DNA of 64,000 nucleotides from Gemmatimonadota bacterium (GTDB lineage Bacteria > Gemmatimonadota > Gemmatimonadetes > Gemmatimonadales > GWC2-71-9), in the NCBI GenBank assembly GCA_039588295.1, contig JBDHAB010000014.1, forward strand, positions 8,312 to 72,311, written 5' to 3'. The position numbers are program-made. Positions 1 through 64,000 of this stretch are shown in pieces (positions within the stretch are counted from its first letter, which is position 1; each line of letters opens with the position of its first letter).

Positions 1-3000
1 GTGATTCCCGTCACCTCCGGACCCACCGAAAAAGATGATGTCGGTCCCGTTACCAGCGTTGTTGGGGGAAGCACCCTCATCAGCGGCGCCGCCGTTGCCT
101 CCAAGGAAGTTGAAGGTTCCTGCAGCACCGCCATCGCCCGTCAGGTTGAGGCCGCCGCTACCGGAGAACAGAAGAAGATCAGCGCCATCGCCACCGTCAA
201 TGACACCGGCTCCAGCGCTTCCGTCAATACCTGAGCCCACAGACACGCTTGCGCCGACGTAAGTGGTACCCGCTCGTCCGCCCACCCCTGCCGTGACGGA
301 TCCAGGCGCGATGCCCACGTCGCCACCAGCCGTTCCAACACCGCCAACGGTCTCGTCACCCGCAACGACGTCTACGGAACCACCAGTTCCGGTACCGAGA
401 TCCTCACCGCGGATCTTGTCGCCATCGGTGAACTCGATATCGTTGCCGTTGGTGATGTCCCCCGCACCGAGAACATCCTCCAAAGGCGAAATGCCACCGC
501 CTCCACCACCAAGCCCGACCACGGAATCGACCACGTCGGCACGCGTGATGATGCTGGAGAAGTAGAAATCCAGCGTTCGAGGCGTCGTAGAAACGGCACT
601 CGCCAACCCGACGAACGGCCGCGTGGCAAGCGATAGATCAGGAAGTACGAACCCTACATCCGGCTCTGTGTGCGTTGCCAGACCGCCATTGGAGATTGTA
701 ACGCCATCGGAGTCGAACACCGTGAAGGTGACATCTCCGCTGGAAGCACTCGCATCGATCTGGAGATAATGAACGAGCCCATCATTGGGGAGGGCAAACA
801 CGTTCACCATCGCCCCACCGGAACCCTGAGCGATAAACTCAAAGGTGACTCCGCCGAGGGACTGGTACAGGCCCATGTATTGCAGTCCGCCCACGGGGGC
901 AGGTGATGCAAGCATCGTGGCGGGGGTCGTCAGAGAGGCATCATCGGTGAACCCGATGAAAATACGTTCATCTGTGTGGGCCGGGGAGGAGCTCTGGAAC
1001 TTGAAAAGAGCCTTGAACTGTTGGTCCCGACTGATCGTCAGATCCGCAGTGGACTCGTATGCCTGCGCTCCAGCGACTGCGCCCAACGACAGAACCAAAA
1101 GAGGACCGTCAGGATCAGTTCCGAACGTGATCGCGCCCGGAGGATCAACGTCGAAGTTGACGGAGCCGCCGTAGACGCCGTAGCTCTCGGGGCCACCAAT
1201 CGGGTTGCCCGGACCCATGAACCCGTAACCGGAAATCAGCAGCGCATCGAGGAACCCGAGACCACCACCGATGGCCGTGGAGAGGTTCAGATCACCACCG
1301 GTGTTCGTGAAGATCAGTTCGCCGGAGTTGTTGACCCAGATGCCGCCTTCGCTGCCCGCTGGCGTGAAAGGCACCACCCCCGAGCTCGACATCAAGAGCC
1401 CAGGCGGATCAATCATGCCGCCGACAGTCAGCTTGCCGCTGATGTCCACATCACCGACGACGAGGAGCTTACCGTCCACCCCGCCGCCGTTACCGATCCC
1501 GAGCGACACGATGAAGCTGCCACCGTCCCCACCACCAGCTCCACCGGCTCCGGTCGTGTACAGAACGCCGCCACCGTTGCCCGTGCCGTCACCAGCACCC
1601 GTGATGACGTTGAAACGACCACCGGCAGCGCCGCTACCGACGCCTCCCGATCCGGTCGTGAAATTAACGGCTCCCGCGAAACTGCCGATGCCGGGGCCGC
1701 TGTCGCCCGCCGTCAAACTCCAGATACCGCCGGAGCCGGTGCCAGCGCCGTCACCCAAGGCGGTGAGGATGCTGCCCCCCGAACCTCCGCCAGGACCGCC
1801 GGGCCCCAGAGTGATGCTCAGGTCCCCACCGTCGCCGGTGCCGGCACCCCCTCCCGTCGCCATGACGAGATTGCCGGCTCCTCCGATGCCCGCTGGATCA
1901 GGCGCGCCACCCGTGAAAAGGATGTCGCCTCCAGCCCCGCCTCCGCCCGTTGAAGTACCGCCCGCGAGGGACAGGTCAACACCCGAGCCTGCACCGCTGT
2001 CGTCACCTTGAATGGTGAGGCCACCCGTTTCGCGGCCAAATCCAAGAACGGATGCGAGGTCTTGGTTTCCTCCACCGCCCCCGATAGCTCCCAGGAGATC
2101 AGCACGCGTGATGCATGTGACCGACCAGATCGACATGAATCGGGCGACCGCATCGCGGGACCTGACGGCAGCCATGTGGCTGAGGAGTGTCGCGGGGGAC
2201 GGCAACTGCGCGTTGAACGTCGTCGCCGCCAGCAAATTCCGATCCACGTCGTACAGACTCAGGGTGATGGCACCAACCACCGTCGAATCGATGTCGATCC
2301 AAAACGCGGTTGATCCCGAGGGAAGGATCCCCGTGTCCACCGTGAGCGGTGCCCCGGACGCGTTGTCCGTGACGAAGTGAAGGTTGATCTGGCCCTGATC
2401 GTCGACGAGCTGGACGCCCACGTAGTCTTCATTCGGCGTCCCAGGGAAAGCGAGCTGATCCGCGAAAGGTGTGCCGCCGCTGGCCGTGGTGAGGCCAGCG
2501 AACATGTTGTAAGCGCCTCCAACCCCCGTCACGAATTTGATGGACGTGAAGTACTTCGAATCGTCGGCTACGGTCGAACCGGTAATCTGCAGCCCCGCAT
2601 CGCTGTCAGCGACTCCTAGCGTGACATAGCTGGCCTGGACACCGTTGAGAGTTGAGACGGTGGTGCCCGGTCCTGGGGAAGGCTCCAGTGGCGGGACAGT
2701 CCCGAAAAAACCTGTGATGTTAGGAAGACCGCCCCCGATGGGAACGGCACCGGTGTCGATGGCCACCCACTGACCGAACTGCATCTGTGCAAAGGCTTCG
2801 GCGAAAGTGCCACCGCCTCCACCACCCCCGGGCTGGAAACTGAGCTGCCCAGCGCCGTTCGTCGTAAGTACCTGGCCGGCGACCCCATCAGCTTCAGGCC
2901 AAAGAAGACCGTCGATGATGACGGCGTTGCCCCCGGCCACGGCGGGGTCGAGAGTCAGATTGCCGTCCGACGTGATCCGGGACCCGAGACTGTCCTCGAC

Positions 3001-63000: not shown

Positions 63001-64000
63001 GCGGTACGCAGCATGGCGCCAAGTGCCACCGGATTTCGAGCCACGCTTTTGACGGGGACCGCTGCTTTACCGCCTTCGGGGAGTCGGCCGGTGCGGAGCT
63101 CCGGGATATCGCCGTCGAACTGGATCAGTTCCACGATCATCCCCATCAGGAGCGGGTGCAGCATCTTGTAGCCGGGACGCTCCTCGAAAGGCTGGAAAAC
63201 GAGGTCCTCCGCGTCGAACCCCCAACGATCGAGCATATTCTGACGCTCAGGAAAATGGGCCAGATCGGTGGACCCTGGATCGATCTTGAAGGCATCGAAC
63301 AAAGCCTTCTCCACGTCGTCCTGGAAATCTCGGTTCTCTGCTGCGGCTCTCCAGATCTCCTTGACCACTTCCTTCGGGTCCATCGCACCGGCCCGAGCGG
63401 TCTCGATCCAATCGACAAGCCCCGGATGCTTGCTCAGGAACTCCTGGCCAAACCGTAAAACCGCATCGAGGAAAGCCTTCTCGTCACTCATGGTGGCCTC
63501 CGATCTGTTTGAAGTACCGGGCCACGCCGCCACTGTCGTTCGGGTATTCCCGACTTTGATGGTCGTCGGCCAACCACGTTGTGCCTTTCACTTTGGCCTC
63601 AGCGCTTCGATCAGAACGAACACCGGTAACACTGGACTCGATGCCATCGAGCTGGACAACGGGGCAATCTCCCATGCACGTCTCTCGGCAATCGGGGCTG
63701 TGTTGCAACATGATGTTCGCAGGCCAGCGGCCTTCGACCTTAAATTCCATCTCGCGGCCACGCCCGTCGGTGAGTCCCGCCCGCCCGTCGGTGTAGCGCA
63801 TCTGGCTTACACCGCTTCCCTTGTAAGTGCGAGACTCGGCACCCACGCGGCACGCGTCGATGTTGACCACCCCACACCCCCACTCGACGACATTCGCTGT
63901 GGTGCTCCCAGGAATCGGCTTGCGCGTCACGGTCACGACCCTCATGTCTTTTTCTTCCCGCTTTTGACCGTCACGGTCGCCCCGGGCTCGACGATCTTGT

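What a model noticed while it worked through the whole genome (the two positions that open the first line are those of the whole stretch)
1..64000. Fragment of a ~600-kb megaphage with four tRNA arrays in the bin
Contig C14 (72 kb, 60.4% G+C against 64-65% for the large contigs) carries 86 densely packed genes of which 76% have no Pfam family, 22-24 tRNA genes in four arrays, two proteins of 2579 and 2626 aa, and phage marks (GH25 lysozyme, HNH, RNA ligase, L5 gp82, N6 methylase). I read it as a piece of a megaphage related to a 618,736-bp, 92%-complete IMG/VR genome, and, because it was binned with this genome, as a candidate first megaphage of Gemmatimonadota; it brings its own translation kit (tRNAs for Ile, Met, Val, Asp, Thr, Lys, His, Phe, a frameshift-controlled release factor, tRNase-Z-like and RNA-ligase genes) and odd cargo (thaumatin-like protein g02002, Bax-inhibitor-like g01974, CoaBC g0 [...]
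Evidence so far: Gene table and composition; tRNAs; stop-codon use is standard: TGA 44, TAG 30, TAA 11 of 85 whole genes. PHROGs at E<=1e-6: 7 of 27 proteins have a family, only RNA ligase, phosphatase and a metal hydrolase are named. The release-factor gene is 82% identical to one on IMGVR_UViG_3300022719_000283 (618,736 bp) and 71-81% to four further viral contigs of 83-213 kb; the C-terminal 1572 aa of g01947 match that record at 4.8-8.3 kb (38% id, E 5e-56), about 40 kb from its release factor at 45-52 kb, the same spacing as on C14; completeness 92% as given by the tool. Within the bin only g02009 (to host RF1, 42%) and g01941 (to g04180 on C155) have a match outside C14. Odd tRNAs: His with anticodon A The finding spans contig positions 1 to 72311; this window holds only 8312 to 72311 of it. 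[...]
(Added by a program. Inside this text positions count along the whole contig: contig position 8,312 is position 1 of the stretch shown here. "Call 12" and the like, gene names such as g00115 and contig names such as C1 are that model's own, and its searches are not shown. The text may have been shortened before it was handed on; [...] marks where a part breaks off. The agent that wrote the report below was given it as the finding of a first reader that could run no searches.)

Follow-up and report, generated by a model that had tools for sequence, protein, structure and literature searches.

The report
Huge-phage fragment, host unproven
This contig is a genuine piece of a very large bacteriophage related to a public 619-kb phage genome, carrying many tRNA genes and a frameshift-gated termination-factor gene, but nothing beyond binning ties it to the Gemmatimonadota genome it was filed with.

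Summary
C14 has 60.4% G+C against 64.2% for the bin. It has two ORFs of 2579 and 2626 aa, 19 (ARAGORN) to 21 (Rfam) tRNA genes in four clusters, and the named phage and cargo domains.

The megaphage reading is well supported. 48 of my 78 C14 ORFs match IMG/VR 3300022719_000283 (618,736 bp) in the same gene order. C14 also runs across the two ends of that 'linear' record, so those ends are neighbours. That record has a portal, a large terminase and 54 tRNAs for all 20 amino acids. C14's tRNA set is therefore the local part of a full set, not a chosen subset.

The host claim is not supported:
- The bin is Gemmatimonadota, but has no CRISPR array or Cas1.
- Only 6 of 78 C14 ORFs match the rest of the bin, all at 49% identity or less.
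- C14 is the strongest tetranucleotide outlier among 52 contigs.
- A clade-specific protein was found in 0 of 400 other genomes of the phylum.
- Only about 82 kb of an expected 0.5-0.7 Mb is in the bin.

The most interesting part is a short RF1-like release factor that needs a prfB-style +1 frameshift (GGAG-N3-CUU-UGA-C). This scan has noted such genes before on other phage DNA.

The parts
1..6303 (-). First 2101 aa of a 2579-aa glycine-rich giant protein (the gene ends at contig position 6875, outside the window). Probably a fibre or surface protein.
   Evidence: ORF and translation. No Pfam or PHROG family. 45-48% identical to two stretches at the two ends of the 618,736-bp record.
6970..14850 (-). 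2626-aa giant protein, a second glycine-rich fibre-like protein.
   Evidence: No family. Matches G001, G003 and G004 at 38-47%.
18087..18536 (-). Cold-shock-domain protein.
   Evidence: PF00313, E 7e-12. 83% identical to the G001 copy.
19350..19823 (-). Lys/Ala-rich (AKKA-repeat) basic protein.
   Evidence: Translation. Its low-complexity repeat explains the many weak DNA matches in genomes of the bin's family.
28970..29716 (-). Bax-inhibitor-1/YccA-family membrane protein.
   Evidence: PF01027, E 1e-47. 73% identical to the G001 copy. The nearest Atlas clusters come from several bacterial phyla.
32234..32911 (-). RNA ligase.
   Evidence: PF09414, E 2e-18; phrog_24030.
36223..37260 (-). GH25 endolysin.
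   Evidence: PF01183, E 8e-29; five endolysin PHROGs shown of six matching families.
37295..38978 (.). Phosphatase (37295-37828, +), a small ORF, and a metallo-beta-lactamase-fold hydrolase (38130-38978, -).
   Evidence: phrog_335, E 5e-31; PF12706, E 7e-11.
39021..41524 (-). tRNA cluster 1: a D-loop-insert tRNA-like gene, Phe, a second Phe, His(GUG), Met, 'His(AUG)' and Ile. An L5 gp82-like gene lies on the + strand at 39959-40399.
   Evidence: PF25735, E 8e-25.
41846..43477 (-). Four-gene block: JAB-like protein (132 aa), 87-aa ORF, 119-aa ORF and ThiF/E1-like protein (190 aa).
   Evidence: PF00899, E 4e-25. PF14464, E 9e-5, is below its cut-off. The two middle ORFs have no family even at E<=1. 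The block is conserved in G001 and L005.
43545..46957 (-). HNH endonuclease, a 310-aa protein and a 630-aa VWA-domain protein.
   Evidence: The last two are 76-79% identical to the G001 copies.
47101..49464 (-). tRNA clusters 2 and 3: Met x2, Ile x2, Val(GAC), Val(CAC), Asp x2, Thr(CGU), Thr(UGU).
   Evidence: Same order as in G001 at 35.8-43.0 kb.
50540..51817 (-). ATP-grasp (R2K clade) protein.
   Evidence: PF14243, E 4e-32.
51853..52869 (+). Thaumatin-like protein.
   Evidence: PF00314, E 8e-28. 74-75% identical in G001 and L004. The two nearest Atlas clusters are mostly viral.
54964..55440 (+). tRNA cluster 4: Lys(CUU) x2, a 93-nt Lys(UUU) with a long variable arm, and Lys(UUU).
   Evidence: The long-arm tRNA is 81-92% identical in five relatives.
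55651..56332 (+). Short RF1-like release factor gene in two frames: ORF0 at 55651-55764 (37 codons plus TGA), then the +1 frame at 55763-56332. The shift site GGAG-CGG-CTT-TGA-C lies at about 55752-55765.
   Evidence: Sequence. Read-through with one four-letter step gives a 226-aa protein. prfA models score 199-205 bits and cover positions ~105-339 only. The site is conserved in relatives.
58344..59153 (-). N6/N4 DNA methyltransferase. A second methylase-like ORF lies at 63484-63945.
   Evidence: PF01555, E 7e-32; phrog_67; phrog_3008.
62412..63533 (-). 373-aa protein specific to this phage clade, used as a marker.
   Evidence: 53-71% identical in five viral contigs and 54-71% in 16 metagenome contigs. 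No hit in GenBank phages, in genome contigs or in 400 other genomes of the phylum.

Best explanation
C14 is a gene-order-preserving fragment of a very large tailed phage. It belongs to the same clade as IMG/VR 3300022719_000283 (618,736 bp), and the genome is probably 0.5-0.7 Mb. The host is unknown; filing it with a Gemmatimonadales bin is not evidence of infection. The fragment covers four things: (1) a fibre or receptor-binding block, with two lectin-domain proteins just outside the window and two glycine-rich giants; (2) many small genes of unknown function, including membrane proteins; (3) an endolysin and RNA-end-repair enzymes; and (4) the first four clusters of what is, in the relative, a full 20-amino-acid tRNA set. 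Beside the tRNA-Lys cluster sits a 226-aa RF1-like release factor that lacks domain 1. Its frame is broken after codon 37 by CUU-UGA-C, three bases after a Shine-Dalgarno-like GGAG. Inferred mechanism: the ribosome makes the full factor only when it slips +1 instead of terminating at UGA. Output of the phage factor would then rise when RF2-type termination at UGA is slow. Shown here: the sequence anatomy, the homology and the conservation. Inferred: that the shift happens, what it senses, and which stop codons the factor reads.
For: Clade and size:
- 48 of 78 C14 ORFs hit G001 at E<=1e-5, in the same order. C14 1-6.6 kb corresponds to G001 606-611.7 kb, and C14 6.9-72 kb to G001 0-58.6 kb.
- The 2579-aa gene matches both G001 4109->18 and 618,734->614,673, so it spans the record's ends.
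- All five viral relatives share gene order around the release factor at 44-82% identity.
- CheckV completeness is 92, 16, 28, 40 and 29% for records of 619, 83, 147, 213 and 152 kb. By my arithmetic that implies expected sizes of about 520-670 kb.

Phage nature of G001:
- Among the 94 ORFs I scanned are a portal (phrog_16240, 1.9e-32), a large terminase (phrog_2, 5e-22), a tail fibre, a UvsX-like recombinase, two RtcB ligases and a CCA-adding enzyme.
- It has 54 tRNAs.

Bin content:
- Small contigs C135, C137 and C139 also match G001 at 49-76%, and C155 matches a C14 ORF at 49%.

Release factor:
- Searches give the anatomy and homology.
- 9 of 26 assessable related viral loci keep SD-N3-CTT-TGA, and none of the 26 has an uninterrupted frame.
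- The same site occurs in GenBank LR745208.1.
- The bin's own prfB has AGGGGA-TAT-CTT-TGA-C.
Against: - No capsid, portal or terminase gene lies on C14 itself: 0 of 75 window ORFs. The phage call for C14 rests on its relative and on the endolysin, HNH and methylase marks.
- Pfam Terminase_6N found nothing in the five records. The terminase appears only through PHROGs.
- Genome size is inferred from relatives. Only about 82 kb (C14 plus four small contigs) is in the bin.
- 30 of 78 ORFs have no match in G001.
- The factor's tripeptide is of the RF1 type (PPT in relatives, PPN here). It should therefore not read UGA, which makes the loop cross-regulation and not the self-regulation known for prfB.
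- No expression or protein data were examined.
Confidence: 0.85

Rival explanations
1. The phage infects the Gemmatimonadales bacterium of this bin, which would make it the first megaphage assigned to Gemmatimonadota.
For: - C14 and four small contigs of the same phage type were binned with this genome.
- The bin is Gemmatimonadota: its RF1 is 63-77% identical to the ten best-listed genome matches, all named Gemmatimonadota, Gemmatimonadetes or Gemmatimonadales MAGs.
- Stop-codon use is similar: bin TGA 370, TAG 287, TAA 90 of 747 long ORFs; C14 TGA 37, TAG 27, TAA 13 of 77.
- The bin's prfB uses the same kind of frameshift site.
- G+C differs by only 4 points.
Against: - No CRISPR array turned up with my crude 18-mer finder, and there is no Cas1 in a bin that is 96% complete.
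- Nucleotide matches between C14 and the rest of the bin are tRNA-like only.
- 6 of 78 ORFs match the rest of the bin, all at 49% identity or less.
- The clade marker was found in 1 of 401 genomes of the phylum, which is G000 itself, and in no record of genome contigs by the two peptide patterns used.
- The phage release factor is 35-42% identical to the 25 best of 81 cellular RF1s from many phyla, with Gemmatimonadota no closer than the others.
- C14 is the top tetranucleotide outlier of 52 contigs of 20 kb or more, z 5.8.
- Most of the expected genome is not in the bin.
- The closest published relative has no firm host. In Al-Shayeb 2020 Table S4 its best phylum is at 10% and 75% of genes are unknown.
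Confidence: 0.2
2. The phage in this sample is much smaller than 600 kb and shares only this ~70-kb module with the 619-kb record.
For: Only about 82 kb is present in the bin. 30 of 78 ORFs lack a match in G001. Huge phages exchange modules.
Against: - Gene order is unbroken over the whole contig and across the G001 end junction.
- C135, C137 and C139 match G001 at about 78 kb and 170-177 kb.
- All four partial relatives get CheckV expected sizes above 500 kb.
Confidence: 0.1
3. C14 is a prophage, plasmid or genomic island of the bacterium.
For: It was binned with the genome.
Against: - Both contig ends lie inside genes that keep gene order with the phage record.
- No integrase turned up among 75 window ORFs.
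- There is no host-like flank.
Confidence: 0.02
4. The broken release-factor frame is a pseudogene or an assembly error.
For: A single extra T would produce it. A GTG at 55781 could start a 183-aa product.
Against: - The same SD-N3-CTT-TGA site stands at the same codon in nine independent viral loci, despite 20-55% protein divergence and G+C from 28 to 64%.
- The 37-codon upstream frame encodes the conserved RF motif I-x-E-I-R-A-x-E-G-G-x-D-A.
- In 15 other loci, the spot where most +1-type genes, including this one, have their shift site carries an in-frame TGA at codon 32-36 of the short form, in place of the conserved Trp.
Confidence: 0.03

Closest known systems
IMG/VR UViG 3300022719_000283 (618,736 bp, CheckV 92%, listed as linear)
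   Same: 48 of 78 ORFs are shared in the same order at 27-84% identity. It has the same tRNA order, the same long-arm tRNA-Lys(UUU), the same frameshifted release factor, and the same thaumatin-like, Bax1-I and ThiF/JAB genes.
   Different: It is not the same phage: proteins are typically 55-80% identical. C14 has 30 ORFs without a match, 60.4% against 58.3% G+C, and HNH and other insertions. C14 adds the junction between the record's two ends.
GenBank LR745208.1, uncultured phage, 485,034 bp. By its length it is the complete circular groundwater genome of that size in Table S1 of Al-Shayeb et al. 2020 (PMC7162821).
   Same: It is the closest GenBank phage to G001's large terminase (52.5% over 95%). 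It carries a short RF1-like gene with GGAGGGGT-CTT-TGA-C.
   Different: The clade marker protein of C14 has no match in it, so it is a more distant relative. The record has no annotation. The paper gives no firm host.
Bacterial prfB (RF2) programmed +1 frameshift, SD-N3-CUU-UGA-C
   Same: Same Shine-Dalgarno-like element, same 3-nt spacer, same CUU slip codon, same UGA, same following C. The bin's own prfB has it.
   Different: Here the gene is RF1-like, not RF2: prfA 199-205 bits against prfB 134. The site lies at codon 38 of a protein without domain 1, at the position of the conserved Gly-Trp of domain 2, not at codon ~26 in domain 1. Prince et al. 2025 (PMC12421855, passages read) found no programmed frameshift in prfA in more than 12,000 bacterial genomes.
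PrfH (release factor H) of the RtcB2-PrfH ribosome repair pair
   Same: A short class-I factor without domain 1, with GGQ.
   Different: The PrfH model scores 72 bits against a cut-off of 167, and the prfA models score far higher. The RF1-type recognition loop is kept. No RtcB stands next to it on C14.
RF1 of TGA-recoded Jade phages (Borges et al. preprint 10.1101/2021.08.26.457843, passages read)
   Same: A phage-borne RF1 next to tRNA genes.
   Different: Those phages read TGA as Trp, and the module is described as standard-coded. C14 uses TGA as its commonest stop. The preprint's passages mention no interruption of the RF gene. Its Table S2 could not be seen.

Membership tests
Huge phage / megaphage (tailed phage >200 kb / >500 kb) | Phage hallmark genes (large terminase, portal, capsid, tail) | tested here: inconclusive
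   None among the 75 window ORFs. Portal, large terminase and tail fibre are present in the gene-order-sharing relative G001. Pfam Terminase_6N is negative in five relatives.
Huge phage / megaphage (tailed phage >200 kb / >500 kb) | Genome longer than 500 kb | not testable with these tools
   Only 72.3 kb plus about 10 kb of small contigs are held. The relative is 618,736 bp, and C14 bridges its ends.
Huge phage / megaphage (tailed phage >200 kb / >500 kb) | Shared gene order with a near-complete huge-phage genome | tested here: met
   48 of 78 ORFs, same order over the whole contig.
Phage of Gemmatimonadota (host link) | CRISPR spacer, integration site, shared near-identical DNA or recently host-derived genes | tested here: not met
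   No spacer test across other Gemmatimonadota was possible: searches were not a valid one.
Phage of Gemmatimonadota (host link) | Repeated association of the phage clade with genomes of the phylum | tested here: not met
   0 of 400 other genomes of the phylum. No record in genome contigs by the two patterns used.
prfB-type programmed +1 frameshift | SD-like element, 3-nt spacer, CUU, in-frame UGA, C after it | tested here: met
   GGAG-CGG-CTT-TGA-C at about 55752-55765.
prfB-type programmed +1 frameshift | The +1 frame continues the same protein, and the site is conserved in relatives | tested here: met
   The joined reading aligns end to end with RF1. The site is kept in 9 related viral loci and in LR745208.1.
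prfB-type programmed +1 frameshift | Autoregulation: the product itself reads the stop codon in the site | not testable with these tools
   The tripeptide is PPN here and PPT in relatives. PxT is the RF1 type, which reads UAG/UAA (recalled textbook knowledge). Whether PPN reads UGA is unknown.
Release factor 1 (prfA) | Full length with domain 1; score above the NCBIfam cut-off | tested here: not met
   204.7 bits against a cut-off of 400. The match covers profile positions 105-332 of 347.
Release factor 1 (prfA) | GGQ motif and PxT recognition tripeptide | tested here: inconclusive
   GGQ is present. The tripeptide is PPN in the window and L002-L004, and PPT in 21 of the other 23 viral loci examined.
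PrfH | Score above the family cut-off; partner RtcB adjacent | tested here: not met
   72.2 bits against 166.65. No RtcB among the window ORFs.

The most novel reading that the evidence does not exclude
Short RF1-type release factors whose synthesis requires getting past a UGA are a conserved regulatory device of huge phages. The UGA is passed either by a prfB-style +1 shift, as here, or by reading an in-frame UGA at the conserved Trp codon. The device couples supply of the phage's own termination factor to the state of host RF2-dependent termination. The largest published phage genomes have it too. In this clade the recognition tripeptide has changed from PPT to PPN, which might let the factor read UGA as well and so close a true self-regulating loop. 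I found no paper describing this, and a 2025 survey of bacteria found no programmed frameshift in prfA.
Probability: 0.5. Interest if true: 0.7.

Novelty: new member of a known kind. Interest (0 to 1): 0.42.

Why it matters
As a phage, C14 adds one useful fact. It joins the two ends of a public 619-kb 'linear' genome, which argues that the record is essentially whole.

As a host claim it should not be cited. A first megaphage of Gemmatimonadota would be worth having, but it needs spacer, proximity-ligation or co-abundance evidence.

The release-factor gene gives a directly testable case of translational recoding outside prfB. One conserved 20-nt cassette could be placed in a reporter. One small protein, in its PPN and PPT forms, could be assayed on the three stop codons.

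The conserved odd tRNAs could show how huge phages keep translation going under attack on tRNAs. These are a class-II tRNA with a Lys anticodon and several A34 tRNAs.

Tried and rejected
- CRISPR: my own 18-mer finder over the whole bin found only a tandem protein repeat on C69, and there is no Cas1.
- DNA search for spacers: I searched 20 kb of the window against 170 genomes of the bin's family. Only two candidates per genome are scored, and nearly all hits fall on a Lys/Ala-rich low-complexity stretch. The four short high-identity hits I fetched lie in no repeat array. This is not a valid spacer test, and I did not repeat it for the other 44 kb.
- Gene origin: the release factor shows no affinity to any phylum. 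The Atlas neighbours of Bax1-I come from Myxococcota, Bacillota, Pseudomonadota and Chloroflexota, and those of the thaumatin-like protein are viral.
- Stop-codon demand: the phage does not use more TAG than the bin, so 'extra RF1 for TAG-rich genes' is not supported.
- TGA recoding: in the low-G+C relatives, ORF coverage rises by 0.01-0.10 when TGA is read as sense, about as much as for TAG, except in L026 (+0.10 against +0.02). That rise is too small for a TGA=Trp code to explain the in-frame-TGA loci. In high-G+C loci the test is uninformative. No UGA-suppressor tRNA was called in the 27 loci.
- The tRNA-like element just upstream of the release factor (tRNA-Sec model, 27.7 bits against a cut-off of 47) has no usable anticodon arm and is not conserved in the five relatives.
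- The two ORFs between JAB and ThiF have no Pfam family even at E<=1, so a ubiquitin-like conjugation system is not shown.
- Pfam Terminase_6N is negative in the relatives.
- Not used: structure prediction, complex prediction, sequencing-run and read-laying tools.
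Full report
**Observation**

The window is G000:C14:8312-72311. C14 is 72,311 bp at 60.4% G+C. 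The first 40 contigs lie at 62.5-66.0% and the whole bin at 64.2%.

- **Giant ORFs.** Two exist: 2579 aa (contig 6875-14614, of which the window holds the first 2101 aa at 1-6303) and 2626 aa (window 6970-14850). Both are glycine-rich and have no Pfam or PHROG family.
- **tRNAs.** ARAGORN tRNA genes. Rfam above the gathering score. One more tRNA-like element falls below threshold. They form four clusters.
- **Pfam and PHROGs.** Of the 75 window ORFs I submitted, 22 have a Pfam family at E<=1e-3 and 23 have a PHROG. The named marks are all there: GH25 endolysin, HNH, RNA ligase, L5 gp82-like, N6/N4 methylase, Bax1-I, thaumatin and RF-1.
- **Missing hallmarks.** None of the 75 is a capsid, portal or terminase.
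- **Caveat.** My ORF list (78 on the contig) comes from a simple codon-bias caller that I wrote. It is approximate.

**Relation to the 619-kb record**

The release-factor C-terminal part finds 83 viral relatives. The best five are 71-81% identical and lie on contigs of 83-619 kb. Around them the neighbouring genes match in the same order.

I fetched the whole 618,736-bp record (G001). 48 of the 78 C14 ORFs hit it at E<=1e-5, at 27-84% identity, in one unbroken order.
- C14 1-6.6 kb corresponds to G001 606-611.7 kb.
- C14 6.9-72 kb corresponds to G001 0-58.6 kb.

The 2579-aa gene matches both the first 4.1 kb and the last 4.1 kb of the record, running off each end. C14 thus bridges the ends of a record that IMG/VR lists as linear. 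The ends are neighbours, and the record is close to a full circle or a permuted genome.

CheckV completeness is 92, 16, 28, 40 and 29% for the five records. By my arithmetic this gives expected sizes of about 520-670 kb.

**G001 is a phage**

Among the 94 of its ORFs that I scanned (360-950 aa, chosen by codon bias from 495) are:
- a portal (1.9e-32), a large terminase (5e-22), a tail fibre and a virion structural protein;
- a UvsX-like recombinase, a clamp loader and a ribonucleotide reductase;
- two RtcB ligases, a CCA-adding enzyme, an elongation-factor-like protein and GroEL.

Pfam Terminase_6N found nothing. Its terminase is 52.5% identical to that of GenBank LR745208.1 (485,034 bp). The nearest cultured phage is Tunturiibacter phage Tunturi_5 at 28.7%.

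**The translation kit**

G001 has 54 tRNA genes covering all 20 amino acids. The first 20, at 27-48 kb, stand in the same order as on C14: Phe, His, Met, Ile, Val, Asp, Thr, Lys. The rest lie at 346-435 kb. The amino-acid list on C14 is therefore what this fragment happens to hold, not a selected subset.

**More of the phage in the bin**

- C135 (2.5 kb) matches G001 near 78-79 kb at 53-76%. It encodes an SNF2-type helicase with a LAGLIDADG insertion.
- C137 (a beta-helix protein) and C139 match G001 at 170-177 kb.
- C155 matches a C14 ORF at 49%.
- No contig over 26 kb other than C14 has a match above 51% identity to G001.

About 82 kb of an expected 0.5-0.7 Mb is therefore in the bin.

**Host**

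The bin is Gemmatimonadota. Its RF1 is 63-77% identical to the ten best-listed genome matches, all Gemmatimonadota, Gemmatimonadetes or Gemmatimonadales MAGs. It is 96% complete with 1.6% contamination.

Against a link:
- There is no CRISPR array by my finder and no Cas1.
- Only tRNA-like nucleotide matches exist: Phe 93% over 59 nt, Met 92% over 61 nt, Lys 89% over 45 nt.
- 6 of 78 ORFs match the rest of the bin, all at 49% identity or less.
- The clade marker protein is in 1 of 401 genomes of the phylum, G000 itself, and in none of genome contigs by two peptide patterns.
- The phage release factor is 35-42% identical to the 25 best of 81 cellular RF1s from many phyla, with Gemmatimonadota no closer than the others.
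- C14 is the strongest tetranucleotide outlier of 52 contigs of 20 kb or more, at distance 0.025 against 0.007 +/- 0.003.

Weakly for a link: similar stop-codon use and a prfB frameshift site in the bin. Both are common features.

A DNA search against 170 genomes of the bin's family was not a valid spacer test.

The closest published relative has no firm host (Table S4 of PMC7162821).

Searches for Gemmatimonadota together with jumbo or huge phages found no paper. Four huge-phage papers do not contain the word.

**Release factor**

ORF0 (55651-55764) encodes 37 residues that begin with the conserved domain-2 motif of release factors. It ends in CTT-TGA-C, three bases after GGAG. Reading CTTT as one step gives a 226-aa protein.

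NCBIfam scores for this protein:

| Model | Bits | Cut-off |
|---|---|---|
| prfA (two models) | 199-205 | 400-423 |
| prfB | 134 | 370 |
| PrfH | 72 | 167 |

The prfA matches cover only profile positions ~105-339, so domain 1 is absent. GGQ is present. The recognition tripeptide reads PPN here and in L002-L004, and PPT in 21 of the other 23 viral loci examined.

Of the 27 best viral loci, 26 can be assessed, and none has an open frame:
- 9 have SD-N3-CTT-TGA. In seven of them, as here, the site lies at the Gly-Trp position; L021's lies about 15 codons earlier, and I did not place L007's.
- 2 (identical copies) need a +1 shift at CTT-TAG-C about 20 codons further on.
- 15 (9 distinct) carry an in-frame TGA at codon 36 of the short form (codon 32 in L022/L023; L024 and L027/L028 have longer upstream frames), exactly where cellular RF1 has the Trp of Gly-Trp-Lys.

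The low-G+C members do not look TGA-recoded, though L026 gains more with TGA as sense (+0.10) than with TAG (+0.02). No UGA-suppressor tRNA was called. The gene sits in or beside tRNA clusters in 21 of the 27 loci.

Published huge phages have it too. LR745208.1 has CTT-TGA-C. LR745206.1 (634,780 bp) and LR756501.1 (735,411 bp) have two in-frame TGAs each.

Prince et al. 2025 report no programmed frameshift in prfA across more than 12,000 bacterial genomes (passages read). The huge-phage and recoding papers mention phage RF1 and RF2 but no interruption (passages read). Two literature searches found no description.

This scan has noted such genes before on other phage DNA: e1-5858624, e1-4016155, e1-5858623 and e1-5713092.

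**Mechanism (inferred)**

The full factor is made only when termination at UGA fails, so its output rises when RF2 activity is low relative to demand. With a PxT-type tripeptide the factor should read UAG and UAA. The loop would then be cross-regulation by RF2, unless the Thr-to-Asn change of this sub-clade widens recognition to UGA. That possibility is untested.

**Other features**

- A 93-nt tRNA with a long variable arm and a Lys anticodon (UUU) is 81-92% identical in five relatives.
- The 'His(AUG)' gene has A at position 33. Its 92%-identical G001 homologue reads AUC with a normal U33.
- A tRNA-like gene at 39021-39114 has a hairpin inserted in the D-loop and an 8-nt anticodon loop. Its G001 homologue has a 7-nt loop that I read as anticodon AAA.
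- G001 also has tRNAs with A34 for Ile and Leu.
- The thaumatin-like protein belongs to mostly viral Atlas clusters.

**Verdict**

C14 is a real fragment of a huge phage from a clade already represented in IMG/VR and, more distantly, in published genomes. The host assignment is unsupported. The release-factor recoding and the odd tRNAs are the parts worth following.

Noticed in passing
window 55270-55362 (+): A 93-nt tRNA with a long variable arm (class II shape), anticodon UUU (Lys) and U at the discriminator position. It is 81-92% identical in five related phages, so it is probably functional. Which synthetase charges it is open.
   Followed up: partly
window 41109-41183 (-): 'tRNA-His(AUG)' has A at positions 33 and 34. 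Its 92%-identical homologue in G001 has a normal U33 and anticodon AUC (Asp). The anticodon differs between close relatives.
   Followed up: partly
window 39021-39114 (-): tRNA-like gene (Rfam 33 bits) with a 17-nt hairpin inserted in the D-loop and an 8-nt anticodon loop (CCUAAACC). The G001 homologue has a longer insert and a 7-nt loop that I read as anticodon AAA.
   Followed up: partly
window 55445-55525 (+): An element with acceptor and T arms directly upstream of the release-factor gene (tRNA-Sec model, 27.7 bits against a cut-off of 47). It has no usable anticodon arm and is not conserved in five relatives.
   Followed up: yes
window 41846-43477 (-): A JAB-like protein, two small ORFs (87 and 119 aa) and a ThiF/E1-like protein in one block, conserved in G001 and L005. 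The layout recalls bacterial ubiquitin-like conjugation operons (recalled), but the two small ORFs match no Pfam family.
   Followed up: partly
L009 and L010, about 9950-10000 (viral contigs of 248 and 75 kb, 28% G+C): Their short RF1-like gene is open at the usual spot but needs a +1 shift at CTT-TAG-C about 20 codons later. TAG is the RF1-specific stop, so this would be true self-regulation of an RF1-type factor. The two loci are identical, and no SD-like element is visible.
   Followed up: partly
L212 (LR745206.1) and L213 (LR756501.1): The 635-kb and 735-kb published huge phages carry the short RF1-like gene with two in-frame TGA codons each. The records have no annotation.
   Followed up: partly
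G001 (L082 and L112), positions 18-4109 and 614,673-618,734: The homologue of the 2579-aa gene is cut by the ends of the 'linear' IMG/VR record. C14 shows the two ends to be adjacent.
   Followed up: yes
G000 contigs C135, C137, C139, C155 (L115-L118): Small contigs of the same phage type. C135 encodes an SNF2-type helicase with a LAGLIDADG insertion, and C137 a right-handed beta-helix protein. C155 has a paralogue of a C14 ORF.
   Followed up: partly
window 19350-19823 (-): 157-aa protein with a long Lys/Ala-rich AKKA repeat, like histone-H1-type bacterial DNA-binding tails. It causes weak DNA matches in 121 of 170 genomes of the bin's family.
   Followed up: partly
window 51853-52869 (+): The thaumatin-like protein is conserved in three relatives. 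Its two nearest Atlas clusters (55 and 50 members) are mostly viral. No PHROG family matches it, and my one literature search listed no paper that mentions thaumatin.
   Followed up: partly
G000:C18, L208 1441-1520: The bin's own prfB has the canonical AGGGGA-TAT-CTT-TGA-C frameshift site.
   Followed up: yes
G000:C69 6760-7600: A long tandem repeat of 33-45 nt units inside a coding region, picked up by my CRISPR finder. It is not a CRISPR array.
   Followed up: no
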